Shown one piece after another: positions 4,725 through 49,808 of a stretch of DNA of 64,000 nucleotides. The position numbers were made by a program, and so were the translations under genes. The notes beneath the pieces were generated by a model, which saw nothing but the letters and a program-made list of their open reading frames with translations, made no database searches and was not told where the DNA came from. The stretch lies in contig NMRA01000111.1 of NCBI GenBank assembly GCA_002633005.1, forward strand, positions 276,866 to 340,865, given 5' to 3'. How positions within the stretch are numbered: position 1 is the first letter of the stretch; every line of letters begins with the position of its first letter. The DNA is from Phoronis australis. Lineage: Eukaryota; Animalia; Phoronida.

Positions 4725-7700
4725 ATGAGTAGATACGTTTTAGGCATGCTATGTTATTTTGCATTTATCAACGCGTCGCCACTGTCCAGGTTTCCGGACA
4801 CGAGCATAGAAACTGCAAACCCGTATAGAGCAATGGTGAGTTTAGTTTACATTTAATTAACAGTCGCCATATAGGTGTGTGAGACAAACGAAGGAAATTT
4901 GCTGCATTAATCTTTGCTTTCTCAGTGTTAAAAGTTTTGATTTAAGCCACTTGCGACAGTTATAAAACTGGTTTCATCTTGTCCCTTATCTTATGAGCTT
5001 AGAAGCGATCTCAGTGACCTGTTTCTACAAAAGTCTACTGGCTTTCCGTCTTTAACAAAAAGTCTAACATCTAACCACAAATAACAAACGTTGAGTTTTC
5101 GTCTTTTGGCTTTGTCTTTTAGCTTGCTCCGGAGCAGGCTATTGTTCTATGTCTTCGCATCGAGTTGTACTGTGACAGATTTCCTAAAAGTTTAACCTTA
5201 GCCTGATTTCGTGAAATATTATAAGCCATCCGTAAACTGATTTTTAGCCAAAGGTCAGAAGACAAAAGACTACGAGAAACAGATCCCCGGGTATTTCATC
5301 GTGGAACACGCTTTTAGCATTTCACGGCGTGATCTGTCTGATGAGCTTAGTCTGTACAAATAGCCTAATGATCTGCCAGTTCTTTCCGCAAAGCCCTGAA
5401 ACCGCTTCCAAATTGACTAAGGATAAATTTGAATTCAGTTTCACAACGATAAAGTGGTCGAAATCAAAAGTTGGTTTTTGTAATGGAATGCAACCGGTTT
5501 AAAGCACAATTAAGTGCTCCCTGGTGTTGTTCAACTCCTCATTTCTATTTTGGTTCAAAGACAAAAGTTTATAAATAAAAGTCCCATAACATGAAATGCG
5601 GTGTTGGATACATGATAATTTAACCACAATTGTTTCAAAAATGCTTTATGATTATGATACTTGGTAAAAGAAAAGTCGTGATTCTAATTCCATTCCAAAA
5701 TTATAATTTACAAATCAGTACCAATGGCTATAACTCTACCATTCCAGGATTACCTAATGCGGTTCGGATACATGAAGCGACCGTCGCTACACGAACCTCC
5801 GTCCCAACAAAACATGGATTCAGCGTTAAAACAATTTCAGAAGATGGCTAACCTACCGGAAACAGGTATGATGGAAGTTGTGAGACCCAACACCTTCAAA
5901 ACTTAAACGAATCATTAACGCGTATTTTCATAATATAGTTAACAGCAAAAACAAAAAACTCTTAACATGTACAGCCAGCCGCAATATTGTCGAACACTCC
6001 GCATAGCTTCACTATTCAACCGTAGTAGGCCATCTTGATTTCCTGATTTCGTGATATTTTCTGCCATCACATGCAGCTTTAAAGCGAATAATTCTTAAAT
6101 GAATCATCCTGTTATTAAATCTCAGGCGCAGTTCTTCTCTCCTACAGAAAAACGTGACTGTGTGTATCTAATAATAGCGCACACAGTCGTAGCCCTACGA
6201 CAGAGCAAGAGAACGTACGTCGCAACCCTCGTGAATTCACCACAAGAATTTGCAAGCATGGCAGTGGTTCAATTTACTTTTTGCAAAAGGTTGTGGGAAC
6301 GCAACAAATATCCAAGACCTTGTGTGTTTTCTACATCACCTGTGGTGCTAATCAAATCGTTGCCGTGACCGCGGCGAAAACGTTTCGTGTGACAAAAGTC
6401 CAAAGCGCACAACACTCACCAGTCATGACCAGGATTCAAAAACAAACTAAGGGCAATAAAAACTACGCACCTGCTGTCAGAAGACTGTTGATTTAAAGCA
6501 TTTGTCATTATAAAACCAGTATCGCCTGTTCATTGTTCAGATTAGACAAGATTTCTAGCCAGGCTTTAGAAGAACTGACAGTTTTTCATTGCTTCTGACC
6601 AGGCTCATGAAATTTGCTTGTGAGGGCAGCAGGTTATTTTAGCCACCGGAGGAGTATAATGAACGTCAGCGGATTTCCTGGCGTTTTATTGCAACCAATT
6701 TCAATTTTAGCAAAAGATAAGATAACTATAAGTTTTTGAAGAAAGTTTTTTTTTGACACTAGAATGGTTGTTGCAAAATGGCCTCTTCTGTGAAGGGGCA
6801 TATTTTTTGGGAAGATGCGGGTGTTGGGGTACGAAATCTACCAATGGTTGTCGGCTTAGATGGAAAAAACAAAGTAGGACAGGGAAAGAAAAAGTTGGAA
6901 AAGAGCGTCTCCAAACTTTAAACTCATCTATTTCCCCGGCACTCCATTGTATTGGCTTTTAAAGTGATTTTGGGCAAACACAGTGAAATAAATGTTGGGC
7001 AAATAAGGTTTGACACCATCCAGTTTCGTTTCTGCTTCTATGTTCCGACTGGAATGCAACGTATCAAATTTTTAATGAAGCCTGCGAACAGTTGTTCCGC
7101 AAAGTTCTGAACATTTACATTATTAAGTTACCAGTGCAGCCGTTATCGGATCAGAAAGAAGCTTCTCAAGTGATATCCAAAGGTTGACATTATTTTACTA
7201 GAGTTATAGTTAACGGAAATGCCAACGCTATCAAGACGCACTTTCTTTGTTTACTCGAATGAAGTTATGTCAAAACAGATTTACAGGTACAAAGGCTATT
7301 CGTAAGTGGCATTTCCTGTAACCAGTTAAACTTTGATATTCACTGTACTGTGTCAAAACAAAAAGGACACCTGGCTACAAACACGTTAACAGCTTCTACA
7401 TACCTAGTAGTATAACTAGCGCCACCACAAGAGACTACTAAGGCAATGAGACTCACTTCAATAATATCACGTTTTCCTATAATATACCAAAATCATCAAC
7501 CGAAGTGACAAAGTATACATCTACGTTTTGTTTATAGTAATTTATTTTTTCTTCTCAAATTTCAGGAAAGCTGGATGCCGCTACCTTAAAAATGATGAAC
7601 AGTCCACGCTGTGGTGTGGCCGATACCGACCCACCCAAGAGCAACGACCCGAATGCACCAGCAAATTTTGCTTTACAAGGTAAACAGCAGTTAAGAATTC

Positions 7701-10700
7701 AAATAACATATCAAATGGCATTGCTGGAATGGGAGAAAAGGTGTCAAATACTACGGCACACTCATAAAAGTAAAACAACAAATTAGTTGTGTAAGCCTTG
7801 TACATTATAGGTACTAAATGGAACCACAAGGACTTGACCTACAGAATAAACTCCTACACCCGAGACCTCTCTAAACAAGAAGTGGATGACACAATCGCTG
7901 AAGCATTCAAGGTATGACAGCGCCATGAATATATACACAGTTTAATCTAAGGCAGCTATGTTACAGAAAGATATAAACAGCAACATCTTTCGAAAATGTG
8001 TGCACGTCTTATATTAAAGCATATTCTTCGTCTGGACATTTATAACGCTAGAAATTTGAATACGTTAAAAGTTTATGAAATATGAATTGACTAATATGAT
8101 AAATTTTCACTGCTTCAAACAGTTTTGGGCTGACAAGACCCCATTGACATTCACAAGAAAAAATTCCGGAAAAGTGGATATAGAGATTTTATTCGTCTAC
8201 GGAGACCACGGAGATGGGTATCCTTTCGACGCTCAGTGGGGCGTACTAGCCCACGCCTTCTTTCCTATGACCAACTCCGCCCCCATTGCAGGTGACACCC
8301 ACTTCGATGACTCGGAACTATGGACGCTTCGGTCGCCTAAAGGTACAAATGGTGGACTGTAATTTTAAGGCTCTCTGCGCCACAATCAATCGGTACTACA
8401 AAACTGTCATTCGCAAAAACATCGATATTCCTTCTTATCTCGGCTCGTTCTCTTAATTTACAGTGATGCATCCAGGCATTGTATGCCGTGGTGGCCTATG
8501 CGGCAAGCAGCTAGTCGCCTGCACAAACTTGATCAGCTCTAATCATGACTGACGCGATCTGCACTTGATAGTCTTCATTATCTGGTGATTTGTACTTTGG
8601 TGGATAGTCGCCAAATTTGATTTTGTTTTCGAATTCACAGTGTTGTTGATTATACATTTCATCCCAAACGAAATACTTTTTATTTCCAGGTGCTAATTTG
8701 CTTCAAGTTGCTGTTCACGAATTCGGTCACGCTTTAGGACTTCTTCATTCCAACGTGCAGGGATCCATCATGTGGCCTTTCGCAAAAGATTATGAACCAA
8801 ACCTTAAGCTTCATTACGACGACATTCGCGGTATTCAGACCTTGTACGGAGGTCCAGTCGTGAAGCCTTCCACAACTCAAACTCCGACAGTAACACCTTC
8901 TAGCGGAGGAAATATTGACCATTGTTCAACAAGTTTCGACGCCGTGACTGTTGCGGTCGACGATCAAACATACTTTTTTAAAGGTATGTATTAACTATTT
9001 AATAACTTAAGGAATACCTATTGGTCTATTAGCACCAAGCTTTAGCCTATTTACATTGACACGACGTTTCGCTTGGGCATTTCTCCAGCCATCTCCCACT
9101 CGTTCTTCGAATAGCGTTGTAACACCTGCCAGATGGCCAGAGAAATGATTGACCCGAAACGTCGTACCAATGTAAATTGGCCAATAGATTTTAAAACTGA
9201 TGTTACCACATCACCACCTAAAAGCGGTTGTAGGAAGACAAAAAAGATTAGATTGAAACATTTTGATGACTCCTTGATTAAAAAACATCACAATCAGAAA
9301 AACACGATAGTGTTGAAATAGTATGCCATAAACATTTAAGCCTGAGTCAGGCACATTTGTATTCTGAATGGAAAACATTGTTTTAACATTAAAAAGAGAC
9401 AACACTAATTTTGCTGCTGGTTTTGTGTTCCAGACAATAAGATATTTAGAGTTGGACGCTATGGTTTGGACAGAGGTTTCCCAATAGACATCAGTGACGT
9501 ATTTCCGGGTGCGCCGTCAAATATCAATGGAGCTCTTACCTACAAGGGGCGTTACTCCGAGGCTAAAACTTATTTGTTCAAGGTACGTATTAGCAGCATA
9601 TCGAAAACAAATTAGCACCAGGAACGCTAAAAAGATCAGGCAATTCAAGAACAAACTGCCTATTTCTGCGAGACACGAATCACGAATGACGGCTTGGTTG
9701 TTTTATAAGAATGTTCACTGTTTTAGGGGGAATCCTACTGGAGATATTCAGTTTCAAACCAAGGTCCACAAGCAGCAGCTTTCATGAAATTGGACAATGG
9801 CTACCCTAAGAAAATAAAGGATGGCTGGAAAGTGGACGTTAGGGATGTCGATGCAGTCTTTACTTTCGGTGAAGGCGACAACAAAGTGCCTTACTTCGTA
9901 AAAGGTAAACGTTTAACTGCACTGTAATAAATTAATATCCTATTTGCTTTCACAAAGTCGGTTGTGAACATCAATCCTGCTGCTTTGCTAACCGTGTCAA
10001 TAAGAAGTCTGGCAAAGAAAAAATACTGGGTAAGCTGAGCTGCCGAATACCACTTATACAGTAACGGATATTCTCTCCTTCCTGCCGTCACAGCAACGTC
10101 TGCCAGGGAAATGAACATTTCCGCCCTCCAGTTACCAGCAAGTGAAAAGCGTTTTGCCGTGCTTGGTTCACAGCCCCAAACTTTTCGTTATCAGAAACAC
10201 TAGTCTGAAGAAACAAATCCTTGCTCTAACTTAGCGGGCGTGCGTTCAGTAGCGTTAGGACCTACGCTAAGACCTAGCCGAAATCTAGCCAAAGTCACGT
10301 GATTTCATTTAGAATACACGGCAATATCTCCCGTAATCTCGCGAAGTCTTGCTTTTTAGCGAGGTCCTAGCGTTACTGAATCGGAGGCGGGTGTTTCACT
10401 TGTTCCTATTTAAAGCTGTATTTCCTTCTGTTTAGTTAGATCGAACGAAAATAGAATATTAAGACTTTTCACTCTCATAAAATCGGTTTACAATACTTCT
10501 TACCGTTAAAGGATTCTATTTCCGTTACCAACAAGAATATACAAGCCACCAAGAAAAGAGTTCAGTTTTTGTTAAGGTGGGGCAACCCTAAAATGCAAAT
10601 TCAAAAATGGTGCATGTAAGCATTGCATGAGCTGGTTACAGAAATGGAATCCTATTACACTAAGGAATACTATGAGACTGATTTTATGAGAGAAAAAGGT

Positions 10701-11346
10701 ATAATTTTCGTTTTTAGACAGCTGAACTAGACGAAATACAGCCTTAAAAGGTACATTTCCATCATATTGTAAATTTAAAACGCTAATTATAAACTAGGCT
10801 AACTAGCAACTGAAAAATATATTCCAAACCTGTTCATTCCACGATAACAAACGATTTTCAAAGTAATTCAGTGTACGGGAAAGTAAAAAACATTGTTAAA
10901 AAGCCACCAACGTCACAGAGACTGCAGGCGGTATCTCAGTTCATTTTTAATGGCAGATGAGTTGCTGTACCACAAAGATTGTGGCAGTTTTTGTTTTTAA
11001 ACAGTCAGCACAAAAGAAATGCCATTTTGAATTCAACTCATTTATTATATCGATACACGATGATGACACTGTGTTTCACTTTCTACAAACAGGTAACCAG
11101 TATTGGCGTCACACAGGAACCGGAAGAGGTGCTTTTCTAGGGTATCCTCGCCGCTTATCGACGCATTCAGTCTTTAGTAAAATACGAAGATCTAGTTTTG
11201 ACGCAGTCTTTCAATGGACCAACGGCAAGACGTATTTTTTCAAAGGCTCAAGATATGATAGAGTAGCGTACCAAACCTCCAAAGGTGAATATCATATTAC
11301 TGAAGGCAAAGACATTGGAGAACATTGGTTTCTTTGCCGGTCTTAG
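4725..11346 (+). CDS. Secreted matrix metalloproteinase (M10A: signal, prodomain, catalytic, hinge, hemopexin), 9 exons, 512 aa
   Basis: GT-AG exons with matching phases: 4725-4835, 5748-5865, 7566-7679, 7811-7911, 8123-8342, 8690-8983, 9434-9582, 9727-9904, 11093-11346 (1539 nt). Signal [17 protein letters not shown]; prodomain DYLMRFGY and [18 protein letters not shown]; cysteine switch PRCGVAD; [24 protein letters not shown]; zinc motif [12 protein letters not shown]; Met-turn SIMWP; Thr/Pro hinge; hemopexin repeats (TYFFKD, TYLFKG, PYFVKG, TYFFKG) closed by WFLC. Specific orthologue not assignable by eye. Confidence 0.96.
10236..10390. mobile_element. MITE (about 150 bp) in MMP intron 8
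   Basis: Imperfect TIRs TTCAGTAGCGTTAGGACCT / AGGTCCTAGCGTTACTGAA; second copy at 23884-24036. Confidence 0.7.
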
Positions 11347-13514: not shown

Positions 13515-14727
13515 AATCACAGTTTCACAGAAACGGACATGATTTTGAGGATGGAGTGTCAACGAACAATGAAAAGGTTCACATAAGTATTTAAGAGGCC
13601 TGGATATGGCTTGTAATGTGTTGCAAAATTTCAATGTTTTCAATATTTATGTTTGATGAGATTATATGTATTTAATGTTGATTACTTTTGTATTCAGTGT
13701 TTTTAAAAATTGTGTTTGATGTCATTATACGTATTCAATCTGTTTTATAACTGTGTTCTATAATGTCATGTTTTCGTTTGATGTTGTTTTCGGTTATATT
13801 CGATAACAAAACTCTGGGTAAATTTAAACGACAGCTGGGATTGGCCTGCAATAAATATATGTTCGACTATTTTTATAAAAGAACGAAAATGATAACACGA
13901 GCAGTTAATGTCATCAAATTCATTGGCGCGGTTGGTACAGTCTGTATAAGTACGACTACGTTACCAACTCCATTGCTTAAATTTAAAGAAATCTCATTTT
14001 GACATGGCAGAATTCTCCAGTGTGAGACAGTCTCAGTAAATTTGGGACACGAAACTAATCGGAAAATGAATTTTCTTGATTCTGACATTTGGGATATGAG
14101 GCAAGGATGAGGGCTGTGACGTTGCCAAGGGAGGATGTATTAAGTCCATGACCCCTTGTTCATTATAATCAAGTCTTCCTGCATGTCAGTTTCACTCTTC
14201 AGTGTGCTTCAAGAAAAGGTCCGTCCCCTGGAAGGTACATGTACTTTAATATTTTTGGAACGGGCGGCGACTCCCGAAAATTAGGATTCCTGGCATTCAG
14301 AGAGTGGACTCGAACAAAAAAGAACCCACATGGCGAGTAGCTTCGTCCGAAAAGTTACAGTTCCTCACGAAACCGCTCGTCAATGGACTCAAGGGCGTAT
14401 AAATAAGCATTTATCTGTCGCATAATATCATTCACCACCTCTGAATCTCCTGAAGTGAGTGCGTGTCCACGAGTATGGATGAAATTGACTAAACTGTGAA
14501 AATAAGGAAGCAGGGGTTCTGGTTCAGTAGCCGCCACATTGATGTATTTGAGAACCAACCACGGCCGTCACCAAATATAATTTTTGAATTTTGCACCACA
14601 CAACACGCCATACCTGGATTCCTGGAAATCACTCGGTCAAATTTAATTGGAACCACATATCCGGGTCTCGAAGTCTGGGGGTCAAATTATTGGAAACTAC
14701 GTGCGGCAACTGAATCACGACGTCACT

Positions 14728-14968
14728 TAAAAAAAAAAAATTGAAGACGGTCTGGTAAACGTTGTACCAGACTTGCGCAGGCCGTTCAGATGGTCTCATT
14801 GCACTGATCAACTGGAACCATTCTTATGCTTTGTTGATATATAGTTAAAACCGAATTGAGGAGCCAAAGACCTGATTCTATGTTCTAGAAGTGTGCCCCA
14901 GTGGAACTCTAACCCGTGACCTTGCGTAAAGGAAGCGGACACTTGTCTCAATAGACCGCACTGCCCGC
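14728..14968 (-). mobile_element. tRNA-derived SINE (diverged copy, same family)
   Basis: Reverse complement aligns by eye along its length with 39451-39691; ends about 75 bp upstream of the deaminase ATG. Confidence 0.65.
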
Positions 14969-15042: not shown

Positions 15043-18000
15043 ATGCTCCTGCAAAAGTTTTTACTTTTCGCTCTTGCTCTCTCGATCGTTTACGCGGGAG
15101 TGGACAACATACCGGAGCAAGAGGCGCAGTACATGTTGCACGTTGGTCAGGAATTTGCGGATCTCTTCACCAACCGAAACCTTCCACAATTTGCCGTACT
15201 TACGGTGAACAGGGCTGGTCTAGACAACGCCTTTGATCCCTGCCGTCTAAGTGTTTCCGACGTTCCGCTAACAGCTCACCAAAACTACGTTGCCAAAAAG
15301 CGCATCACCGCAAGCGAGCCAGGTGGACCAAGGCATTCTGAGAGGCAGGTGCTCGATCTACTGCAAGATTTAATCACAAGGAACTCTCCAGTGCAGTAAG
15401 TGGCATTGAAATAGTGTTAATAACTAAGATCAGTCGTCCTCGGGCAGGTTTGATGTGACGACCAGAAGTATTCAGAGATTGGAGTTTCCAGTTCCATGTG
15501 AATTTTCGAAAAAAATCCAGAAAATGAATCTACATACAGTGGTGTGAGAAGTGTTTCTGATCTCCAGCTTGTCTTGCAATGAAATTTGCCTCTCTGTTGT
15601 GGAGAGATTAGCTCAAAATCGGCAAGAAACTTTGTTTTGTCCATTTTCTCATCCGGGATAATCTTAGGAATACTTTCGAAGTTGGAAAAACAGTTGGAAT
15701 TCAATATACAGAATTATTCATTTTTCGCCAGTAAATAAATGCTTTTTTAAAAGCATTTATTTTAAAAAATTGTCTTCAATATGCTGTTTCGTTTTTGTGC
15801 CTCACTCGTGAACACAACAGTGATTTGTTTCATGATTGAATTTTTTGCAATTGTTATTTTGGCTATAGGTATGTGAAAAAGGAACACAATCACTTATAAG
15901 CTTACTGTGTCACATTTACGTCAAACACAAATGAGGGAATAGTGCATGTGTTATTTACCGTCCTATAACAGGGTTCAATAACTACGTGCGTTGTCCTCTC
16001 GGCTCTTATTTCATTGTTATGTAGGAATGGATGCCGCACACACACGCACGCATATATTTATATATATTGGCAAAACATCTGAAGATCAATAAAAAACACT
16101 TGCCATGCTAGCCTGTGGACACTCATTGAGTCGCCGGGTGAGTGGATGCGTGACCGTAATGAGCTATTTTCCGGAAGATTCGGGGCCGTGTAAGGGTGCA
16201 CATGTGTTCACTATTAGTGGGTCATTTTGACTTTAAAAACACCAATTATGATCAGCTAAATAATTTCTCTTAAAAATAATGCAAAAGTTTTTTACGGTAT
16301 TAGAAACATTCGGAAATTAGTGCCTATATTTATTTCTTGCCGATGCTATGTTACCCATTTCACGAATGAGATAGTTCCCGACTAAATGTCTTCGATGACA
16401 GCCGGTACATTATGTAGCGCGCGCTTCTTGACCGCGTGCTAACACTGGTCGAGTTTTTTTATTAGTCCTCGATTCACGGTTTTCACGTGCACAAAGACGT
16501 TTGGATTCCTGTTGAGGCCGGAGAAGATCTGTACCAGAAAGAAACAATGCAATCCCCATGACAAGTACGCTGCGTCTGTTTTCAAAGTCCAGACCCGCGT
16601 GGGGCACATCCCTCGCAGGAGCAGCAAAACTTTTGCGTTCTTATTGAATCGCGGCGTAAGTTTGAAGTGTATACGGACATAACGGTGAGGCTCGTGGCCT
16701 ACAAATTCAGGACTGTCGGATCTTTCAATTGAAAAATTGGAGACGTTAGAACTGTAGGTAAGGCATTTTTCGCATGCAGTTTATGGGCTGGGCGCTTAGT
16801 TAAGCGAAGTCTGAAAACGTGTTGGGGCACTTATTGGGGCATGGACGCTTATTAGGGCGAATAGCGGCAGAATTTCATACAGCAGTGTAGTTTAATGCAC
16901 ACAAATCACACGTCGTGGAAACCAATCGGCCTTTCCACATACCCTAATCAATCCCAATAGCCTTTGCGCACCACAATTTCCGGACATGCGCAATCGTTAA
17001 ATCGATTCGGTTGCAACTCCGCTATTACGCCGACCGGTCCATCAGTGCATATTGTTGTGGTTCTGTGTGTACAAGACAGCTGTGACACCGGTTTCTGAGA
17101 TTTGTTCTGCAATTATAAATGAAAAGTTTAGCTCCTACTAACAGATGCGTTTACGTAACTTTCGAAAAACTACTCGTAATCAACGCGAAGTTTTATTTAA
17201 TCAAAAAGCACTGTTGCTTATTCAACGTGTACTTTTATTCAGCTCATATAGCCTAAGCTATTTTTATATTTCTGAAATACTATGAGATTATGTTCACTGA
17301 TATTTTATTTCATGATTACATTTCATCAATTGGGAAGACTTGAAATCTCCGCCGCCAGAGCAATGTGTAATGTTGCTGAATTGCCAAGTTTCACAAATGC
17401 TCAGACTAGGGTTTAGCAATAGAGACTCAAGAGATTCAGGAAGGAAGCTAGAGTGATCACGTGCTTCGCTTGTAATACACAGAGATATATCTCGCGAAGC
17501 CTCGCGTGATCTTGCGTTTTCGCTTTCCTTCTCATGCCTTGTTATTATTTTTCCTGTCGATCAAAATATGTCCGACCTTTTTCTGATATAAATCCATTCT
17601 GAAACAACCTGAAGGTTCTACGCAATAAACTTCAACACCAATTCTTGCATTGACCACAGTATTTCGCAATTTTCTCAAACTTTATTCATGTTATTTACTG
17701 CTTTGTTACGTAACAATGTAATGGTCTGTTTGCAGTTCGGTACATATATACTCGGTCAACTCCCCGTGTCGCGGTTGTGCTTTGAAGATATCTCGTGTAG
17801 CCAGAGCCAAGCCGACAGTGCAGTTCTATGTGGGCTACGCGCAGATGTTCATACCCCGCGACAATCCAGTCAGTGTGGGTCAAGAGATCTTACAGTTCAC
17901 CAGAGAACAGTTCAGGAATGTTAGGAATATTCATTTCGCACAACTAGATCCCAGTTGTCTGCAGTCATCCAGGTTGGGAAGCAGGGTGTGGAACCTATTC

Positions 18001-18183
18001 TCCCGCATTTTTCAGACCAGGGGCTCTTGTAGTCTTACCAACTTACGGCGGACAGACGGCACCTGTGTACTCCCGGCAGGTGACGTACCATACATTTCTA
18101 CATTTAATTGTGTCTGTTGTCGCGATGTTATCAGCGGTTTACACATTGGCCGGTGGAGGCATAGGTATTGGAGTAGGGATTGA
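15043..18183 (+). CDS. Secreted AID/APOBEC-like cytidine deaminase (SNAD-like), 2 coding exons, 266 aa in the simplest model
   Basis: Exon 15043-15395 (CA|gtaagt) joins exon 17736-18183 (tttgcag|T) in phase 2. Product: signal MLLQKFLLFALALSIVYA, then QFAVL, NYVAKK, H98-S-E100 (15334-15342) and IYSVNSPC129-R-G-C132 (PCRGC at 17764-17778), i.e. HxE-x27-PCxxC, followed by the strand FYVGY. The C-terminus is uncertain because of an alternative donor after 18079. Confidence 0.88.
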
Positions 18184-18863
18184 GGCATTAGAGAGAGCAA
18201 AGACACAGAAGCAATATATGGGAACATTTGGCAACTACCAGTGGTGCATTAGCCTGTTGGAGGGCCCTGACCAGGACATTTCTTGTTAGATAGTATAAAC
18301 GCAGTTAAAAACACCCTGTTAGGGTATGCGACAAATTCGAAAATGTCGGAGAAAACTTTTGACGTACAGATTCTCCGGGGCTAATTGATTAAGTTTTTCA
18401 AATTCGTGAAGCAGTCTTTAGGGAATGCAAAATTAGTTCTCCAGGTACCCTTCTCCAGCAAGGAAACCTTTTCGATGAGATCCTCCCTTGGAGGGGCGGC
18501 CCGGGGCAATTGTCCCTATGATTCCGGCACTGTCAAATCTCTACGAGTTTAAGAGTTAAGAGTTAAGACAAAATTTCAAATTGGTCGATAAAAACAGAAC
18601 ATGCCCATATGAAGCACTGTATTATCAAGACATGCGATCGTTGTGAGGCTGCATTGTACGGCGGAGTAGAAGGGCCAACTAAAAAATAAAAAGTCGTCGA
18701 CTATCACGATATGAAGCCATTATGACAAGATGGAATTTCATTATAACAACTTAGCTGTCTTTGTCATTCTAGGTTTTGCGTAATTTCCATGCTTTCATAA
18801 CTGTTTGCAAACTTACGTTTACAAATTCATTGCTTACTAAGACAATTCTGTTCCCATTTCTGC

Positions 18864-18869
18864 AATAAA
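18864..18869 (+). terminator. Candidate polyadenylation signal of the deaminase mRNA
   Basis: AATAAA about 680 bp downstream of the TGA ending at 18183. Confidence 0.3.
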
Positions 18870-19818
18870 ACTTTGTCGGAATGACAAATGACAAATCAAC
18901 TCGCTTGCCTAGTATGTTTGAAGATAAGTATTTTTCACGGAAATTCAGCTGAAAAAGTTATTTTTAACCTTTTGCAGTTTTAATAACACATTTTAAGTCT
19001 AAGTTTTCTTAGCCATCTTGTCAGTCAGATAAATTTCCATTATTTTCGGACCATATGTAAAATCAGCATTGTTATGCTGACAAAGGCTTTATCCTGAATC
19101 TTACAGTGCTACTAAGGTTGACAAATCAAAACGAGACTTCTGCGTATTTAATCATTTTATAGGATAATGTCTGTCAGCCCCAGCTCAATTTCAAATAAAT
19201 CAAAGCTTAAAAATACTCTAGTGGACCAACGTAAAAAATGGCGTAGCTGGAGTTTGGGTTGGAAACTACAGCAACGTTGACATAGTTACGACCAGGAAGC
19301 AGCAGTCGAGTTGGCGTAGCATATGAGATGGGATAGGAGTTAGGTGAAGGCGGGGGGTGACAAAGTAACACTAATCTTCTGACACGGGTGACAGTAATCC
19401 TAGCTACTGAGGTAATAATTTGTACCTTACGCCGGTTTTCTTTACTTCAATATATTGAAAATGTTCTAGCTAACCTGATTTCAGCTGAGGGTATCTAGTG
19501 AAACAAGACGAATGCTATCTGGGTTAATAATGACAGACAAACCAGGGTATCTCGACAACAAATTTCCTTAACACAAGTTTTTTCCAACACGACGTTGCAT
19601 TTATTCTTATCCTTCTCAATAGATAAATGCTCTAATCGGCGGCTTGATGATCTTGCTTCAGCTGTCATTTGACGTAAAAAATGACCCAGACTCATGGCAG
19701 TGAGGGAAACACAGAAAGTGTTTATATTCAAATCACGTAACGTGAAAGTATACAGCACAATTGTCCGGCACTTCGTATGTCATGAGACATCTTCATGGAA
19801 GACCCATAGGGGGGTGAC

Positions 19819-19969
19819 CAGAGGCGGATCCAGGATTTTGAGTTGGGGAGGGTGGCAGGGCAGAGTATTAGCCAGGATTTTCCCCGTCAGACATTCGCAC
19901 CCCCGAACTGCGAAATGGAGCCTGGGAAAATTTTAGGGGGAGCCATGGCCCCCTTTAAATCCGCCACTG
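19819..19969. mobile_element. Short MITE with CAG(T/A)GGCGGAT termini
   Basis: TIRs CAGAGGCGGAT / ATCCGCCACTG; flanks GTGAC/GTGAT. Related copies or ends at about 40-138, 12750-12787, 22568-22594 and 44697-44830. Confidence 0.7.
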
Positions 19970-19993
19970 GTGATCGCAACAAAAACATCATAA

Positions 19994-20055
19994 TCTTTGT
20001 GTGCGAGATAGAGCCTTAACTATATTATACTAAGGCTCTATCTCGCACACAAAGA
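19994..20055. repeat. Perfect 25-bp-stem hairpin with 12-nt loop
   Basis: TCTTTGTGTGCGAGATAGAGCCTTA - ACTATATTATAC - TAAGGCTCTATCTCGCACACAAAGA. Confidence 0.9.
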
Positions 20056-20271
20056 CAACTACATCAGACCAGTAGCCTAACCCTCAACTGAACATGTGCA
20101 AAACGCGGGAAAGTCCAGCTAGGCAGAGTAATATTCACGGCCAACTTCCACTCATACCGCGCGAGATCAAGGCTGGCATTCTAGTTTCTATCAACATAAA
20201 CCCAGTTTGTGCTCTGTGAACGCTTAAATCACAGTAAATGTCACTGTTTTGTTGAGATGAATCAAGTGGTC

Positions 20272-22566
20272 ATAACCCATAAAGTTATCTCACTAGTGAG
20301 ATAACAATTTGGCGGGAAACCGAGGCCTCAAACTTTCGAGTTGCCGACTTTACCACTACACCACTCAGCGGCTGACGTCAACGAATGTGAAAATAGAATA
20401 AATGAGCACACGCAACAATCGCATGTTCAGCAAAGGGCATTGCACCGACATTTATACGCTATGAAAAATAATACGCATAATTTCCATAAAAACGATATTT
20501 TAATTCAGTAAATTTTTTCTTTCGTGTTCTCTCACTTGTAAATCACCGATCTCCAATTTGAATACGGGTATCGTGTCGTCGGGATCCTTGACTTGAGCAT
20601 TATAGTCAGTTACTAGTGGTAACATACTTTAGCAGACGATATTTTCCAGGTCGAAGCTTAGCGTGATAAAATGTGTAGTAAGCTATAATAGTTGCTAAAC
20701 CTTAGTTTATAGATTCACTTTATTTATATTTTGTTCAAATTTTCAATTGGTTCTGAGTAAAAGCATTATTTGACAAAAATAGCTCGGCTTTTCTTAAAAG
20801 GTCACGAACTCCGACCCCGGGCCTCTGATAGAGAAAGTAGTTACAAAGCCGAGGCGAGTCGAGAAAGGTAGATCGATTCATTGCAATGTTTCTCGTTCAG
20901 TATGTGGTATATATACATATACATATACATATATATATATATGTATGTATGTATATATTATACTATTAGTTTTGTACATTATTACGTTATCTTACAATAA
21001 ATATCTCAACCACATTCTATTTTTCTAACTGAGCTAGAACCATCGCATCAGCAAAATATTGTCCTGGATAAATGAAATTTAATTTCAATTAAATGAATTA
21101 ATCAGGAAATATTTTTCTCCATCCATCATTCTACAGTTGTTTGATTTCGTGTATATCGTCACTGATCAATTTGTTCACAAATGTCTTTTACGTAATAATT
21201 ATTTGTTCCATTTGAAAGGTTCACTGAACTTCATTACCTTGTCAGACGATCAAGTCGTGTTTCTGGTCAGTCTTCAAAACTTGTTTTCCCGCCTCCTACC
21301 CTCCCGTTTCGTAGTATTTTATACTGGTAAAGTTTTATTCCGTCTTTCCATAGAGTCTCCATTTCGTGCATGTTTTTAGCCTTTTTGTCGGCCATCATTG
21401 TCATGTGAGAAAAACTATGTTCATATACCTATTATAGAATTGTAGAATTCTAGTTTATTTACAACAAACAGCTCAACCACTTTCTATATTCCGAACTCAC
21501 CAATCTTAGCTCGAACCACCGTATCAGCAAAATATTGTCCTAGATAAAATCCGTGTTTTGAGATTGAAGGAGCTCCCTTTTCGAAGTTGCACTTATGCAA
21601 ATGACTCAGGTTATCCGGTGTCATGACCTCAACAAAGACACTAATCATTCGTGTATGCATTTTTTATTTGTTCGTGGGAAATATTCTGAGGAATGACGAT
21701 TAATTATTGCTTGTTTGTCGAATATTGTTCTCAGCTTCGTTTTCACCGTTTTTCGTAAATCAATTTTTCTCCCAGACCTAAGGCGAAATGGAGTTCGTAA
21801 AAAAACGTCACGATATTCGTTGTTGGATACCTTCTTTCTACATTTCTCGTATTTTCTAAAAATAAGGCATATTTGTCTACATACAACTTTGCCGATATTT
21901 GGATCATTTGCTCACAAAACTCGGTATTTTTTTTGTATCACAACTTCTCAACATACAAAATGGAAATATGGTTCAAACTTGTCGACTTAATGATTTTACT
22001 GATCTAAGAAATCATGAGATTTCACTATGGTCCTATTATAGGGGTTTTGAATAACAATGTTTTGATTTTGTTTAGCTTCTGTAGAACTTGATCGTAAGCT
22101 ATTAATCTCAGAGATGTACCAGAATAATCAAGTATTGCCTAAAACTGGTGAACCTCGGGATAACAGATTCATTAGAATTGGTTATAAAATTCAATATTAG
22201 CTTGCAGAACAAGGAAAAATCTTGTTGAGGACTAAATGTCAGGCGTTTATTATTTACGTCCGGTTTTGGACCTGTCTGGATACATCAAGGTGTAATAAAT
22301 GAATTGTCTTTTGTGAATGAGCTCCGTCAGCAAAGCTGGTATTCCGATGTCAAGTGAACCAAGTCAGATGCACAATTGCACCTTTCAAACTTTTGTTCCA
22401 ACCTCAGCTAAAAGTCTTTAAGTACTATCAGTTTCATGGGAATTTTTCTGCTAAATGTATTTTTAAAAATGAGGATAGTGCAAAATAACAAGTGCACATT
22501 TTGTGGACTGGCAAAAGCTTATAATCACATATGTTTGGAATGTTAGCATATGGCTCCGTTTGGGAC
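20272..22566. repeat. Left arm of a 2295-bp inverted duplication
   Basis: Reverse complement of 26628-28922 (coordinates sum to 49194; identical ORFs on opposite strands in the track). Ends exactly at the N at 22567. Confidence 0.95.
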
Positions 22567-23111
22567 NCCCCCTGGGCCCCCCTAAATCCGCCTATGTGGT
22601 GTAACGTGTCAACTTGCCAACTCTACTATGAGTTAGCCTAATTTCCACTTGTGGGATATCAATGGGAGTTTATTAGGCAAAGGAATTGCCAAGCCTTTGT
22701 CTCCTGCAGCCCCAAATTTCAGATTCGCTTGTCACCATCACTACTTCCCTCCTCTGTCGGCGTCACCAATTTTACGCCGCCATAGGCGTGCGCCTTTTGC
22801 CGTTTTGGACGGCTTAATCCGGTGACGCAGCTACAAGAAACCTGGGTAGGCCTACCTTGGTTTCAATGAAATTTCATTAGAAAGAGAAATTTCAAAAATT
22901 TTCAGTCACTATGTCTATGTCACGAGCATAGTGAAATCGCTTGAGACGAAAAGTTTCAAAGTTTACACTATTTCGATACGTATAAGTTTAAATGGCCACG
23001 TTTTATGGACAAATGGCTCAAATATCGATAGTTCATTTTCTAGTTGTTGACTGTGTTCAGACAACAGTTACCACGAACAGTTTCTGGCGACAAAAATTTT
23101 ACACCACACCC

Positions 23112-23350
23112 CATGCGCGCACCCAGGGGGGAAGGGCCCCCCATTTAGCGAAGTGGGCAAAAAGGTCCGCCTCTGAGAAACAGAAAGTCCGAGAAAATGA
23201 GACAAAAGTCCACTAAACAAGCACAAACGCGCAACTCACGGTGGTGCCCCTTTTCTTTTTTCTTTTTAGTCCGCACGCATTTTTGTTACCAAAAGGTCCA
23301 CATCGTCAGGAATTCGAGCCCCCCATATTGAAGGCTTGGGTGCGCACATG
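23112..23350. mobile_element. MITE with CATGCGCGCAC TIRs and 5-bp TSD (CACCC)
   Basis: TIRs CATGCGCGCACCCA / TGGGTGCGCACATG; CACCC on both sides; second copy at 53282-53500. Confidence 0.8.
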
Positions 23351-23414
23351 CACCCCTCGCTTGAATGTGTCTAGCTACGCTTGGTTCTTTCAGTGCAAAC
23401 CCATGAATTTGTAG

Positions 23415-23657
23415 GTCTGTGCAACCTTCAACCCGTGAGCGACTACCGTGCGACTTGTGGCGACTGCTCTGGGAATGACCTATGGGATATCTACGGCGAT
23501 AGAGTGAGTCTTGAGGAATGCGCAAGCAGATGTTCAAACGATCACAGATGCAACGCGTTCATGTTCTACAACGGACATAGGTGTTATCCCAAAACCATGG
23601 CCTGTCGTCACCCATCACTGACAAACTCTCTGAATGTATTTTACACGCCGATGACCA
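23415..23657 (+). CDS. PAN/apple-like domain exon A (phase 1-1)
   Basis: tttgtag|GT...ACC A|gtaagt, 243 nt: LCNLQPVSDYRATCGDCSGNDLWDIYGDRVSLEECASRCSNDHRCNAFMFYNGHRCYPKTMACRHPSLTNSLNVFYTPMT. The pattern DCxGND..CxxxC..CxAF..CYPK is typical of PAN/apple modules. Confidence 0.85.
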
Positions 23658-25461: not shown

Positions 25462-25692
25462 ACGGTGATGCAGAGCTAAACGACTATGAATCCTTGCCCG
25501 GGGACTGTCCCGGCAACGACATCTGGAGCTTGTACAGAAGATCCACCAGGCTGGAAGACTGTGCTAGTCTCTGTTCCCACAGTTCTCTCTGCAAAGCGTT
25601 CATGTTCTTCGATAACCGCGAGTGCTATCCAAAGTCGCAGAGCTGCCAGTGTCCGTCAAGAACCAACCCCAAAAATGTATTCTACCGCAAAA
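25462..25692 (+). CDS. PAN/apple-like domain exon B (phase 1-1)
   Basis: gttgcag|AC...AAA A|gtaagt, 231 nt: GDAELNDYESLPGDCPGNDIWSLYRRSTRLEDCASLCSHSSLCKAFMFFDNRECYPKSQSCQCPSRTNPKNVFYRK. Confidence 0.85.
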
Positions 25693-26627
25693 GTAAGTCG
25701 GTCAGTTTGACGAGTTATTTCCGTTTTATTAGTGAACGCGCACATTTTAATACATGGTACATGTACCTGACAGAGAGTCTAGTTCTTGGAAACGACGCTG
25801 ATACATTGCAACGAAAAGAAATCATAATAACTGCGTAATTGATCAGCACAATAAATTATATATTGTCTAATATGACTTGTTTCCTCTTTTCTACCACTAA
25901 TAAGTATTTATACATATGTGTTTAAATCCTCATAATGTGTAGAATTAATAACTCGTGTAAAAACGTTGAAGGCTAACATATAAACATTTTGGTGTGGAAA
26001 TCTCTGGTGGATGTCTACATTCATAGCGCATTTCTATTAAATGTATTTCTTTTACTAACTTTCTCACATTACAGTACGGGTAAATTCTTTTTCACTGGCA
26101 GTCTTCGTTGACCATGACTGAAAACGGGGAACACCTGAAGCGAGCAAACACTTGAATATATTGAAGTCCCAGACAAGTAACATGATTTTCATAAGTTGTT
26201 TTTTAAATAATGCTGACACATCGAATTTTCTGTTCCTTTTCTTTTTTAATAATTTATTTCAACAAAATAATAGAAATTAACAAAACAAGCGAGGAGAAAA
26301 AACCTTCGCTCTATCACATTCACACTCCCCAGTTCTGCTTGACTTAAATTTACTATGAATCTATAAGAGTCTCAAAAGAGCTACGCCATGGGGAAATTTT
26401 TTTACTCTCGTATTTTTCCATATCTTGACAACATAAATTACATTTTTAAAATTCCCCAATTACAGGGCCACAGGTGACCTTGGAACAGGTATAAATAAAG
26501 TATTATGGTAGAGTTAAAATGTCATTAATTTCATAGAAATAACCTCCAAAATATGTAAATAACAGGAATTTTTTCTCAAATAATAAATGATATTGCTTAC
26601 CATATTTGAAAGCGACGTTTGTGTTTC

Positions 26628-28922
26628 GTCCCAAACGGAGCCATATGCTCACATTCCAAACATATGTGATTATAAGCTTTTGCCAGTCCACAAAATGTGC
26701 ACTTGTTATTTTGCACTATCCTCATTTTTAAAAATACATTTAGCAGAAAAATTCCCATGAAACTGATAGTACTTAAAGACTTTTAGCTGAGGTTGGAACA
26801 AAAGTTTGAAAGGTGCAATTGTGCATCTGACTTGGTTCACTTGACATCGGAATACCAGCTTTGCTGACGGAGCTCATTCACAAAAGACAATTCATTTATT
26901 ACACCTTGATGTATCCAGACAGGTCCAAAACCGGACGTAAATAATAAACGCCTGACATTTAGTCCTCAACAAGATTTTTCCTTGTTCTGCAAGCTAATAT
27001 TGAATTTTATAACCAATTCTAATGAATCTGTTATCCCGAGGTTCACCAGTTTTAGGCAATACTTGATTATTCTGGTACATCTCTGAGATTAATAGCTTAC
27101 GATCAAGTTCTACAGAAGCTAAACAAAATCAAAACATTGTTATTCAAAACCCCTATAATAGGACCATAGTGAAATCTCATGATTTCTTAGATCAGTAAAA
27201 TCATTAAGTCGACAAGTTTGAACCATATTTCCATTTTGTATGTTGAGAAGTTGTGATACAAAAAAAATACCGAGTTTTGTGAGCAAATGATCCAAATATC
27301 GGCAAAGTTGTATGTAGACAAATATGCCTTATTTTTAGAAAATACGAGAAATGTAGAAAGAAGGTATCCAACAACGAATATCGTGACGTTTTTTTACGAA
27401 CTCCATTTCGCCTTAGGTCTGGGAGAAAAATTGATTTACGAAAAACGGTGAAAACGAAGCTGAGAACAATATTCGACAAACAAGCAATAATTAATCGTCA
27501 TTCCTCAGAATATTTCCCACGAACAAATAAAAAATGCATACACGAATGATTAGTGTCTTTGTTGAGGTCATGACACCGGATAACCTGAGTCATTTGCATA
27601 AGTGCAACTTCGAAAAGGGAGCTCCTTCAATCTCAAAACACGGATTTTATCTAGGACAATATTTTGCTGATACGGTGGTTCGAGCTAAGATTGGTGAGTT
27701 CGGAATATAGAAAGTGGTTGAGCTGTTTGTTGTAAATAAACTAGAATTCTACAATTCTATAATAGGTATATGAACATAGTTTTTCTCACATGACAATGAT
27801 GGCCGACAAAAAGGCTAAAAACATGCACGAAATGGAGACTCTATGGAAAGACGGAATAAAACTTTACCAGTATAAAATACTACGAAACGGGAGGGTAGGA
27901 GGCGGGAAAACAAGTTTTGAAGACTGACCAGAAACACGACTTGATCGTCTGACAAGGTAATGAAGTTCAGTGAACCTTTCAAATGGAACAAATAATTATT
28001 ACGTAAAAGACATTTGTGAACAAATTGATCAGTGACGATATACACGAAATCAAACAACTGTAGAATGATGGATGGAGAAAAATATTTCCTGATTAATTCA
28101 TTTAATTGAAATTAAATTTCATTTATCCAGGACAATATTTTGCTGATGCGATGGTTCTAGCTCAGTTAGAAAAATAGAATGTGGTTGAGATATTTATTGT
28201 AAGATAACGTAATAATGTACAAAACTAATAGTATAATATATACATACATACATATATATATATATGTATATGTATATGTATATATACCACATACTGAACG
28301 AGAAACATTGCAATGAATCGATCTACCTTTCTCGACTCGCCTCGGCTTTGTAACTACTTTCTCTATCAGAGGCCCGGGGTCGGAGTTCGTGACCTTTTAA
28401 GAAAAGCCGAGCTATTTTTGTCAAATAATGCTTTTACTCAGAACCAATTGAAAATTTGAACAAAATATAAATAAAGTGAATCTATAAACTAAGGTTTAGC
28501 AACTATTATAGCTTACTACACATTTTATCACGCTAAGCTTCGACCTGGAAAATATCGTCTGCTAAAGTATGTTACCACTAGTAACTGACTATAATGCTCA
28601 AGTCAAGGATCCCGACGACACGATACCCGTATTCAAATTGGAGATCGGTGATTTACAAGTGAGAGAACACGAAAGAAAAAATTTACTGAATTAAAATATC
28701 GTTTTTATGGAAATTATGCGTATTATTTTTCATAGCGTATAAATGTCGGTGCAATGCCCTTTGCTGAACATGCGATTGTTGCGTGTGCTCATTTATTCTA
28801 TTTTCACATTCGTTGACGTCAGCCGCTGAGTGGTGTAGTGGTAAAGTCGGCAACTCGAAAGTTTGAGGCCTCGGTTTCCCGCCAAATTGTTATCTCACTA
28901 GTGAGATAACTTTATGGGTTAT
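26628..28922. repeat. Right arm of a 2295-bp inverted duplication
   Basis: Reverse complement of 20272-22566. Contains a (TA)/(TACA) microsatellite and the palindrome GTTATCTCACTAGTGAGATAAC near the outer end. Confidence 0.95.
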
Positions 28923-29052
28923 TACACGGTTGTATCTGCCATTCGAGGCTAATACTGTGGTATAAAATAAATTATTTTTCCTAACATAACAAAGGTGCAC
29001 GACAAAAAACACCGCATCAATCACCCAAAGGCATGTATTTGCATATTTGTAG

Positions 29053-29295
29053 GTCTGTGCAACCTTCAACCGGTGAACGGCTACCGCGCGACTTGTGGGG
29101 ACTGCTCTGGGAATGACCTATGGGATATCTACGGCGATAGAGTGAGTTTGGAGGAATGCGCAAGGAGATGTTCAAACGATCAGAGATGCAACGCGTTCAT
29201 GTTCTACAACGGACACAGGTGTTATCCCAAAACCACGGCCTGTCGTCAGCCATCCCTGACAAACCATCTGAATGTATTTTACACTCCGGTGACTA
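29053..29295 (+). CDS. PAN/apple-like domain exon A' (recent direct duplicate of exon A)
   Basis: tttgtag|GT...ACT A|gtaagt, 243 nt. Near-identical to 23415-23657 with scattered substitutions; the downstream intron is also similar. Confidence 0.85.
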
Positions 29296-30359: not shown

Positions 30360-30587
30360 CATGCGCCGACGTGAACACGAATGGTTGCACAACAAGATGC
30401 GGTGACTGCGGGGGAAATGATATCTGGAGTATCTATGCTAACTCCGTGAGTCTAGAAGAGTGTGCCAGAAGATGTAACGGCGACCCGCAGTGCAAAGCCT
30501 TTATGTTCTACAATGGACACCGATGCTATCCAAAGGATGAGACGTGCGCAATAACGTCAAACACCAACCCTAAAAACGTTTTCTATG
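30360..30587 (+). CDS. PAN/apple-like domain exon C (phase 1-1)
   Basis: cttctttag|CA...TAT G|gtacgt, 228 nt: CADVNTNGCTTRCGDCGGNDIWSIYANSVSLEECARRCNGDPQCKAFMFYNGHRCYPKDETCAITSNTNPKNVFY. Confidence 0.85.
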
Positions 30588-49770: not shown

Positions 49771-49808
49771 GCATACAGAATTTGGCAAGATGATAGAGTT
49801 TGAGTTAC

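What the first reader, a model, noticed from the sequence alone, without database searches (positions are those of the whole stretch)
15043..18183. Hidden secreted AID/APOBEC-like (SNAD-type) deaminase with an intact active site in an invertebrate
Seen: two unremarkable ORFs join through a canonical phase-2 intron (15396-17735) into a 266-aa protein with an 18-aa signal peptide, H98-S-E100, 27 residues, then P-C129-R-G-C132, preceded by IYSVNS and followed by FYVGY. Established: HxE-x(23-28)-PCx(2-4)C is the AID/APOBEC zinc motif, and signal-peptide-bearing members form the Secreted Novel AID/APOBEC-like Deaminase (SNAD) group, whose substrates and function are largely unknown. The QFAVL and NYVA segments resemble the SNAD N-terminus as I recall it. 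Inference: a catalytically competent secreted C-to-U deaminase, possibly an immune or toxin-like effector acting on foreign nucleic acid, with a Cys/Arg-rich C-terminal extension beyond the core fold.
Basis: partly seen in the sequence, partly recalled or inferred. Interest (0 to 1): 0.9.

Follow-up and report, generated by a model that had tools for sequence, protein, structure and literature searches.

The report
Secreted APOBEC-like deaminase with PAN modules
A transcribed, spliced gene of a likely invertebrate animal joins a predicted signal peptide and an AID/APOBEC-type zinc deaminase motif to PAN/apple binding modules, a layout that would likely let a secreted enzyme dock on foreign cells or viruses and mutate their nucleic acid.

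Summary
The phase-2 intron 15396-17735, H98-x-E100, P128-C129-x2-C132 and an 18-residue signal-peptide-like start are in the sequence. An assembled contig spans the junction, and exon 2 matches AID/APOBEC profiles below their curated cut-offs. RNA reads leave the genome at a second donor (18080) and continue into a PAN/apple exon at 23415. The 'Cys/Arg-rich tail' is therefore intron read-through. The revised model has 405 aa: signal peptide, deaminase, Cys linker, two PAN modules. Two further in-frame PAN exons lie downstream, and a paralogue is also transcribed. By eye the deaminase shares several motifs with vertebrate SNAD1-3, but it fails defining features of each of SNAD1-4, and no tree could be built. 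No deaminase-PAN fusion appeared among 43 PAN relatives, 12 loci or the paper searches. Best reading: a secreted, PAN-aimed C-to-U deaminase of innate defence. Activity, secretion, ligand and host phylum are untested or unresolved.

The parts
15043..15395 (+). Exon 1 (coding): predicted signal peptide (15043-15096), helix 1, strand 1 (QFAVL, residues 49-53), C67, strand 2 region (NYVA, 81-84), H98-x-E100 (15334-15342), helix 2
   Evidence: X1 contig 15104-15395 and X4 stranded depth about 6; no Pfam hit on its own
15396..17735 (+). Intron 1, phase 2, GT..AG, rich in repeats
   Evidence: contig joint 15395->17736; chance test
17736..18079 (+). Exon 2: strand 3, P-C129-x2-C132 (17764-17778), helix 3, strand 4, loop-7 aromatic F156, helix 4, strand 5, Cys linker (C192, C216, C228)
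   Evidence: Pfam NAD1 24.1, SNAD4 22.5, APOBEC_N 22.0 bits, all below cut-off; Atlas APOBEC clusters at 0.76-0.82; reads in 4 of 4 runs
18080..23414 (+). Intron 2, phase 1 (donor cag|gtgacg).
   Evidence: loose ends at 18081 in X2 and X4; no read beyond it
23415..23657 (+). Exon 3: PAN/apple module 1 (phase 1-1)
   Evidence: junction reads match here best; PAN_1 29.9 bits against cut-off 21.4; AlphaFold2 pLDDT 89.3; Foldseek best rows mostly PAN/apple, none at E<=0.001
25462..25692 (+). Exon 4 (inferred): PAN/apple module 2 (phase 1-1), with one extra Cys (C377)
   Evidence: canonical splice sites and open frame; PAN_1 20.3 bits, just under cut-off; junctions not tested with reads
26075..26121 (+). 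Exon 5 (inferred terminal exon, coding part): 15-residue tail and stop; AATAAA at 26494 and 26582
   Evidence: acceptor and frame; not tested with reads
29053..29295 (+). Exon 3b: intact duplicate of exon 3 (90% amino-acid identity); alternative or additional PAN exon
   Evidence: 18 differences in 240 nt, 8 synonymous and 8 non-synonymous codons
30360..30587 (+). Exon 4b: fourth in-frame PAN exon (phase 1-1); no following exon identified

Best explanation
The gene is spliced from a signal-peptide-like, deaminase-motif exon pair into a PAN/apple exon, and it likely encodes a secreted two-part defence protein whose PAN modules would bind a surface ligand while the zinc deaminase would convert C to U in single-stranded foreign nucleic acid. 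Steps. (1) Transcription and splicing of exons 1-2-PAN: shown. (2) Splicing on to exons 4 and 5, giving 405 aa: inferred from splice sites and frame. (3) Entry into the secretory pathway, with disulphides in the linker and PAN modules: predicted. (4) Zinc binding by H98, C129 and C132 with E100 as proton shuttle, and a pyrimidine-sized pocket set by F156: inferred from family knowledge. (5) PAN binding to a glycan or protein on microbes, virions, parasites or infected cells, then uptake or action on exposed nucleic acid: inferred by analogy.
For: Catalytic motif intact with canonical spacing. The 124 nt of exon 2 that code the PCxxC region show 0 listed differences in the 4 runs, against 8 in the next 220 nt (binomial p 0.028, on small numbers). 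The paralogous transcript differs in 12 codons of an 89-nt stretch, 9 of them synonymous, which points to purifying selection. Its contig runs 988 nt beyond the match, against 1013 nt to the first AATAAA in the revised model, which is compatible with a similar long 3' part (the contig's sequence was not seen). The PAN exons have no signal-peptide first exon of their own in four intervals scanned and join in frame. The nearest PAN relatives sit in amphioxus mosaic proteins with tectonin, F5/8, C-type lectin, kringle or laminin-G domains, and in coral proteins made of a hydrophobic N-terminus and PAN repeats. The nearest solved sequence is the apple domain of Toxoplasma MIC4 (E 0.018); MIC4 binds galactose (PMC6829480, search listing). 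Vertebrate SNAD1 is found in plasma (PMC9207270 passages; PMC13402138 introduction). Sea-urchin and brachiopod AID/APOBEC-like enzymes mutate DNA in E. coli (PMC5956068 passages).
Against: No activity is reported for any SNAD in the papers read (PMC11004436 passages; PMC8201067 passages). All deaminase Pfam scores are under the curated cut-offs, and exon 1 hits nothing. The Atlas scores are below 0.9 and count as leads only. There is no usable model of the deaminase (exon 2 alone, pLDDT 38.6). PAN/apple folds also bind proteins or heparin (HGF, plasminogen and factor XI among the Foldseek rows), so a glycan ligand is not shown. No translocation or pore-forming part is evident, so access to nucleic acid inside a target is unexplained. 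Zinc-binding cysteines must survive an oxidising compartment. No raw read is listed across the first junction. There is no infection-challenge or tissue information for the runs.
Confidence: 0.5

Rival explanations
1. A secreted binding protein or small-substrate enzyme: the deaminase domain binds nucleic acid without editing it (as an opsonin or trap component), or deaminates free cytidine or short fragments outside cells.
For: No SNAD activity on polynucleotides is reported in the papers read. There is no evident translocation domain. The substrate-contacting basic residue at the end of strand 4 (Arg in core vertebrate enzymes) is Q154 here by eye alignment.
Against: All four catalytic residues and the loop-7 aromatic are kept, and the PCxxC region has no listed variant in 4 runs. 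The domain matches the polynucleotide-editing AID/APOBEC families, not the free-nucleoside cytidine deaminase family.
Confidence: 0.17
2. An AB-type offensive or deterrent protein (mucus, egg or gland secretion): the PAN modules bind cells of competitors, predators or prey, and the deaminase damages their RNA or DNA after uptake.
For: An enzyme-plus-binding-module layout. AID/APOBEC-like deaminases are proposed to descend from bacterial polymorphic toxins (PMC5889660). There is a paralogue and duplicated PAN exons.
Against: No tissue data. Known secreted relatives are plasma proteins linked to immune organs. The named PAN relatives carry lectin-type domains.
Confidence: 0.15
3. A self-directed role: the protein edits or clears the animal's own extracellular RNA or DNA, or acts in development, with the PAN modules binding matrix or a host receptor as in HGF.
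For: The best Foldseek rows are HGF N-domains. Some carp snad1 genes are maternally loaded (PMC13402138 abstract).
Against: Allelic differences outside the catalytic region are mostly non-synonymous (5 of 7 codons; few sites). The domain has no detectable homologue among 1.84 billion representatives, which fits fast divergence better than a conserved host role.
Confidence: 0.12
4. One reading: a stand-alone 266-aa deaminase ending at 18183 is the main product, and the PAN join is minor read-through into a neighbouring gene.
For: The frame stays open for 34 codons past the donor. Only 6 listed reads carry the PAN join, and dips in depth are unreliable in this tool.
Against: All reads that reach 18080-18081 (3 + 2 + 3, from bin depths) stop there, and none covers 18106-18183. 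No separate start exon was found for the PAN exons.
Confidence: 0.05

Closest known systems
Vertebrate SNAD1-3 (Krishnan et al. 2018, PMC5889660; Pfam SNAD1-3 models)
   Same: Signal peptide (SNAD1/2). By eye against Fig. S1 (34 rows): Q-[YF]-A opening strand 1 (4 of 7 vertebrate SNAD rows, 0 of 27 others); a Cys about 10 residues after strand 1 (3 of 3 SNAD1 rows); a [VI]-A pair in strand 2 (5 of 5 SNAD1/2 rows); F-x-P-R in loop 7 (2 of 2 SNAD2 rows); [VI]-G-[FY] ending strand 4 (2 of 2 SNAD3 rows).
   Different: Cx2C rather than SNAD1's Cx3C. No C---CxxC---C cluster. No Cys at the start of strand 3. It keeps a signal peptide, unlike SNAD3. It carries PAN modules. The host is not a vertebrate (inferred). 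No Pfam hit to SNAD1-3 was listed at E<=10.
SNAD4 of sponges (PF18750)
   Same: Signal peptide, Cx2C, short helix 3 followed by Pro; second-best Pfam match of exon 2 (22.5 bits, cut-off 27).
   Different: Loop 7 has F, not W. No acidic stretch in loop 7. No charged residue before the NSPC motif. No W at the end of strand 5. It has a long strand 1-2 insert and PAN modules.
Secreted dictyostelid AID/APOBEC-like deaminases
   Same: Signal peptide plus a disulphide-bonded C-terminal addition (Table S1).
   Different: The addition here is two or more PAN/apple modules; loop 7 has F rather than W; the host is an animal.
Classical AID/APOBEC enzymes (APOBEC4, NAD1, invertebrate AIDL clades)
   Same: Best profile and Atlas matches of exon 2. 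Strand 3-CxxC-helix 3-Pro-strand 4 aligns without gaps to AID by eye. N-S-P-C also occurs in human APOBEC4.
   Different: These are intracellular and have no signal peptide. The extra zinc-site residues of the APOBEC4/cnidarian and lophotrochozoan-echinoderm clades, and the WP motif before strand 1, are absent here by eye.
PAN-repeat secreted proteins of corals and PAN-containing mosaic lectin-like proteins of amphioxus (P0031-P0073)
   Same: Same PAN subfamily, 43-65% identity to exon 3.
   Different: 0 of 43 carry an HxE..PCxxC motif or a deaminase match.

Membership tests
AID/APOBEC-like deaminases | HxE followed after about 25-30 residues by PCx2-4C | tested here: met
   H98-S-E100, 27 residues, P128-C129-x2-C132; junction contig
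AID/APOBEC-like deaminases | Profile match above the curated cut-off | tested here: inconclusive
   Exons scanned separately. Exon 2: best E 4.6e-5, 24.1 bits against 27; in the 74-aa stretch 7 of 8 listed families are AID/APOBEC. Exon 1: 0 families. Atlas: the ten best hits with a family share the APOBEC family or clan, top score 0.82
AID/APOBEC-like deaminases | Aromatic residue (Y/F/W) in loop 7 that limits the pocket to a pyrimidine | tested here: met
   F156 falls on the AID loop-7 Tyr in an ungapped by-eye alignment to Fig. S1 rows
AID/APOBEC-like deaminases | Asn or small substitute at the start of loop 3 | tested here: inconclusive
   No Asn; T89 or S91 could serve; register uncertain
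AID/APOBEC-like deaminases | Five-stranded deaminase fold with a zinc site | tested here: inconclusive
   Exon 2 alone without an alignment gave pLDDT 38.6; there is no model of the whole domain
AID/APOBEC-like deaminases | C-to-U activity on single-stranded nucleic acid | not testable with these tools
   needs an assay
SNAD lineage | N-terminal signal peptide | tested here: met
   K5, hydrophobic core (8-residue mean 3.05), V16/A18 at -3/-1; by hydropathy only; an unseen upstream exon is not excluded
SNAD lineage | Groups with SNADs in a phylogeny | not tested
   no SNAD protein was returned by any search, so no tree could be built
SNAD1 | Cx3C active-site motif | tested here: not met
   Cx2C (Table S1)
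SNAD1/SNAD2 | C---CxxC---C cluster on strands 5-7 | tested here: not met
   C192, C216, C228, C235: no CxxC before the PAN exon
SNAD1 | Cys in the loop after strand 1 and Cys at the start of strand 3 | tested here: not met
   the first is present (C67), the second is absent
SNAD1/SNAD2 | [quoted passage not shown] | tested here: inconclusive
   an insert of about 23 residues with a Cys is present; its structure was not modelled
SNAD2 | Tyr in the middle of strand 3 | tested here: met
   Y123; also common outside SNAD2 in Fig. S1
SNAD3 | Loss of the signal peptide, N-terminal helical extension, large insert after strand 5 | tested here: not met
   signal peptide present
SNAD4 | W in loop 7, W at the end of strand 5, acidic loop-7 stretch, charged residue before CxnC | tested here: not met
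   0 of these 4 features; Pfam 22.5 bits against 27
PAN/apple domain | Six-Cys PAN pattern, profile match and fold | tested here: met
   PAN_1 matches 4 of 4 exons at E<=0.1; exon 3 at 29.9 bits against cut-off 21.4; model pLDDT 89.3; Foldseek rows mostly PAN/apple, best E 0.019
PAN/apple lectins (MIC4, SML-2 type) | Glycan binding | not testable with these tools
   weak likeness only

The most novel reading that the evidence does not exclude
This is a fifth, basal branch of the secreted deaminases, in a non-sponge invertebrate, bridging sponge SNAD4 and vertebrate SNAD1-3. It is built like an AB toxin: exchangeable, phase-1 PAN/apple exons act as a variable aiming unit that carries an active C-to-U mutator to microbes, viruses or parasites. 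It would be the first secreted AID/APOBEC enzyme whose targeting module is visible in the same chain.
Probability: 0.3. Interest if true: 0.88.

Novelty: new variant of a known kind. Interest (0 to 1): 0.7.

Why it matters
How a secreted nucleic-acid deaminase finds and reaches its substrate is the open question about SNADs; the papers read report no substrate, activity or delivery route. A natural fusion to a compact binding module makes the question testable: the PAN modules can be used to find the target surface, and the enzyme can be assayed with and without them. In the 2018 survey SNADs were listed only for vertebrates and sponges, with no AID/APOBEC at all for cephalochordates and hemichordates (Fig. 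S2). If the host is a bilaterian or cnidarian and the SNAD affinity holds, the gene fills that gap. The domain has no detectable homologue among 1.84 billion representatives, so it is also a very divergent candidate cytidine deaminase.

Tried and rejected
No genome is held for the window, so paralogues outside it could not be mapped. The transcribed paralogue's 20-nt marker has 0 matches in the window at up to 3 mismatches. A weak HSER-like tblastn hit at 959-991 (minus strand) was inspected and rejected.

Homologue searches with the deaminase exons found nothing. Exon 2 against proteins of 81-259 aa: 0 of 9 candidates (full-length forms were outside that range). Exon 2 against 1.84 billion representatives: 1 hit, P0001, a repetitive 1812-aa protein at 19% identity, rejected as spurious; exon 1 was not searched there. 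PDB sequences: 0 for each exon. Metagenome contigs: 0 of 285. Genome contigs, exon 1: 0 of 601. Viral contigs: 0 of 16. The Atlas gave no named lead for exon 1.

AlphaFold2 on exon 2 alone was unusable and was not sent to a fold search. The whole spliced domain was neither folded nor scanned against Pfam, so those tests stay open.

The likeness of the C216-C228 linker to the segment in front of coral PAN repeats was not significant with a 17-sequence profile (E 1.4 for exon 2).

Host lineage: the neighbouring MMP is at most 63% identical to any hit and falls outside all sampled clades in a tree of 30 sequences and 268 columns; unresolved.

The run search listed no holder on record as RNA, which is no evidence either way. 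C>T differences at 18049, 18070 and 18072 in X4 (5 of 5 reads) look allelic and were not taken as editing. Rfam: 0 matches. Earlier findings of the scan: nothing in 3 look-ups.
Full report
OBSERVATION. There is an ATG at 15043, a consensus donor at 15396 and an acceptor ending at 17735. The phase-2 join places H98-x-E100 27 residues before P128-C129-x2-C132. Such a join occurs once in the window and in 0 of 30 shuffled copies. A 429-nt contig from run X1 skips exactly this intron. Stranded reads show plus-strand RNA on exon 1 in X4 and on exon 2 in X2-X4. Against this, no raw-read joint is listed for the first junction in any of the three raw-read runs, and X2 and X3 lack depth over most of exon 1. 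The tool drops some reads without notice, so I leave that unexplained; the first junction rests on one contig.

THE C-TERMINUS IS DIFFERENT. At 80% likeness, coverage of exon 2 ends at 18081 in all raw-read runs. Bin depths correspond to 3, 2 and 3 reads reaching that point, and none goes on. Six loose ends are listed, 3 in X2 and 3 in X4. The 30-letter consensus of X4 matches 23417 with 1 mismatch and 29055 with 2; chance expectation is 0.00. Position 18080 is a donor (cag|gtgacg) and 23415 follows an acceptor (ttgtag|), and the join is in frame. The window holds four such exons and no more on either strand (profile scan): 23415-23657, 25462-25692, 29053-29295 and 30360-30587. All are phase 1-1 with canonical sites, and all match Pfam PAN models. 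Exon 3 folds confidently (pLDDT 89.3). Its Foldseek neighbours are mostly PAN/apple domains of HGF, plasminogen, factor XI and apicomplexan microneme proteins, none at E<=0.001. A candidate terminal exon at 26075 gives a 405-aa protein: signal peptide, deaminase (about 19-192), Cys linker, PAN, PAN, short tail. Only the exon 2-to-PAN junction has read support; the later junctions are inferred. A crude scan found no signal-peptide first exon of their own for the PAN exons in four intervals. A 2298-bp inverted duplication (20269-22566 against 26628-28925; 2 mismatches, one end next to an N) flanks exons 3-5. It may be a recent duplication or an assembly artefact. Either PAN copy gives the same domain order.

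THE DEAMINASE. Exon 2 matches NAD1 (24.1 bits), SNAD4 (22.5) and APOBEC_N (22.0), all under the cut-offs; exon 1 matches nothing. The Atlas puts exon 2 nearest to APOBEC clusters at 0.76-0.82, which is a lead only. Sequence searches found no homologue, so clade placement rests on reading Table S1 and the 34 rows of Fig. S1 of Krishnan et al.. Q-[YF]-A opens strand 1 in 4 of 7 vertebrate SNAD rows and 0 of 27 others. F-x-P-R in loop 7 is in both SNAD2 rows, and [VI]-G-[FY] at the end of strand 4 is in both SNAD3 rows. A Cys follows strand 1 as in SNAD1. N-S-P-C is not diagnostic: it is in 4 of 7 vertebrate SNAD rows but also in APOBEC4, one SNAD4 row and the bacterial row. These motifs were picked after the fact and carry no statistics. 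Defining features of SNAD1, 2, 3 and 4 each fail, so I do not file it in any of them. My odds: basal SNAD lineage 0.55, classical enzyme that gained a signal peptide 0.3, separate origin 0.15.

SELECTION AND FAMILY. A second, more abundant transcript (X1 contig of 1535 nt, depth 253.7; also reads in X2-X4) matches 17872-17960 with 15 differences: 12 codons change, 9 of them silently. Its marker is not in the window. Near-identical reads show 0 listed differences over 17736-17859, which holds the zinc cysteines and loop 7, and 8 over the next 220 nt (p 0.028). Exons 3 and 3b differ by 8 synonymous and 8 non-synonymous codons over about 50 and 180 sites. The gene looks functional and belongs to a small family.

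PAN RELATIVES. A profile of the four exons found 43 proteins among 347 candidates of 141-2000 aa. The named ones are amphioxus mosaics with tectonin, F5/8, C-type lectin, kringle or laminin-G domains, and coral proteins; most unnamed ones begin with a hydrophobic stretch followed by PAN repeats (1-6 per protein). None has an HxE..PCxxC motif or a deaminase match (0 of 43), and 0 of 12 metagenome loci match the deaminase exons. The loci are 1-9 kb long, so a distant upstream exon could be missed.

HOST. An MMP with hemopexin repeats, ShK-like exons, PAN exons and long introns mark an animal. The lack of any close vertebrate MMP suggests a non-vertebrate. The tree did not resolve the phylum, and a sponge is not excluded.

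MECHANISM. Shown: transcription, two splice junctions, motif, PAN identity. Predicted: secretion and disulphides (19 cysteines besides the two zinc ligands, so one is unpaired in the model). Inferred: zinc-dependent C-to-U deamination of single-stranded nucleic acid, and aiming by the PAN modules at a non-self surface. The weak link is access to the substrate, since no translocation domain is seen. The rivals are a non-editing or small-substrate role, a deterrent or offensive secretion, and a self-directed role.

LITERATURE. PMC5889660: main text parts 1-5 of 8 and supplement parts 1-7 of 63 plus term searches. The held supplement is cut near Fig. S16, so the SNAD3, SNAD4, dictyostelid and bacterial alignments (Figs S17-S20) were not seen. 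One SNAD4 row starts at residue 217, so multi-domain SNAD4 proteins may exist there. PMC11004436, PMC9207270, PMC5956068 and PMC8201067: passages only. PMC13402138: abstract and introduction. PMC6829480: search listing only. Searches for a deaminase with PAN or apple domains returned 0 papers. Searches on SNAD terms returned 7, 5, 6 and 2 papers, none listed as describing a non-sponge invertebrate SNAD; searches added none by title or abstract start. The library holds only openly licensed PMC papers and bioRxiv. The secondary-structure labels used here are transferred by eye from Fig. S1; the -3/-1 rule for signal peptides and the transposon labels under 'noticed' are recalled.

VERDICT. A real, expressed gene and a new variant of a known kind. 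The corrected architecture, a secreted AID/APOBEC-like deaminase with PAN/apple modules, is more informative than the one first proposed. Interest 0.7: it offers a handle on how secreted deaminases find targets, but activity, secretion, clade and host remain open.

Noticed in passing
window 5745-11346 (+): Multi-exon matrix metalloproteinase gene with the [11 protein letters not shown] zinc motif and hemopexin repeats; about 50% identical to its best relatives and outside all sampled clades.
   Followed up: partly
window 20269-22566 and 26628-28925: 2298-bp inverted duplication with 2 mismatches, flanking exons 3-5; one copy ends at the N at 22567. Recent duplication, inversion polymorphism or assembly artefact.
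   Followed up: partly
window 29053-29295 and 30360-30587 (+): Two spare, intact, in-frame PAN exons after the predicted terminal exon; possible alternative 3' ends with up to four PAN modules. No terminal exon was found after 30587.
   Followed up: partly
window 17872-17960 (reads of X1-X4): A paralogous transcript about 83% identical here, about ten times deeper in X1, not encoded in the window.
   Followed up: partly
window 15085-15398: Runs X2 and X3 cover exon 2 at 12-14x but show no depth here, and no raw-read run lists the first junction; a tool filter, a divergent allele or another 5' exon are all possible.
   Followed up: partly
window 59115-59342 (-) and 56954-57122: ShK-like exon (Pfam 25.9 bits, cut-off 20.9) and a second copy at 72% nucleotide identity: part of another multi-exon, Cys-rich gene.
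   Followed up: partly
proteins P0032-P0069; loci L001-L012: A mostly unnamed family of proteins made of a hydrophobic N-terminus and PAN repeats (named members from corals), many with a P-C-x10-C segment in front; it recalls the C216-C228 linker here but not significantly.
   Followed up: partly
window 36679-36906 (-), 49635-49940 (-), 51243-51476 (-), 55150-55443 (+), 57813-58178 (-): ORF fragments that by eye recall THAP, copia-type integrase and LINE C-terminal regions (labels recalled; only the last was scanned, with 0 Pfam families).
   Followed up: no
window 32067-32882, 35029-35866, 51995-52757: Three related copies of an element of about 800 bp containing C-rich short repeats (68-80% identity); two of the window's three N letters lie in them.
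   Followed up: no
window 14614-14927 and 16027-17596: Repeats upstream of the gene and in intron 1 draw many reads of 90-95% identity on both strands, so they are widely transcribed elsewhere in the genome.
   Followed up: no
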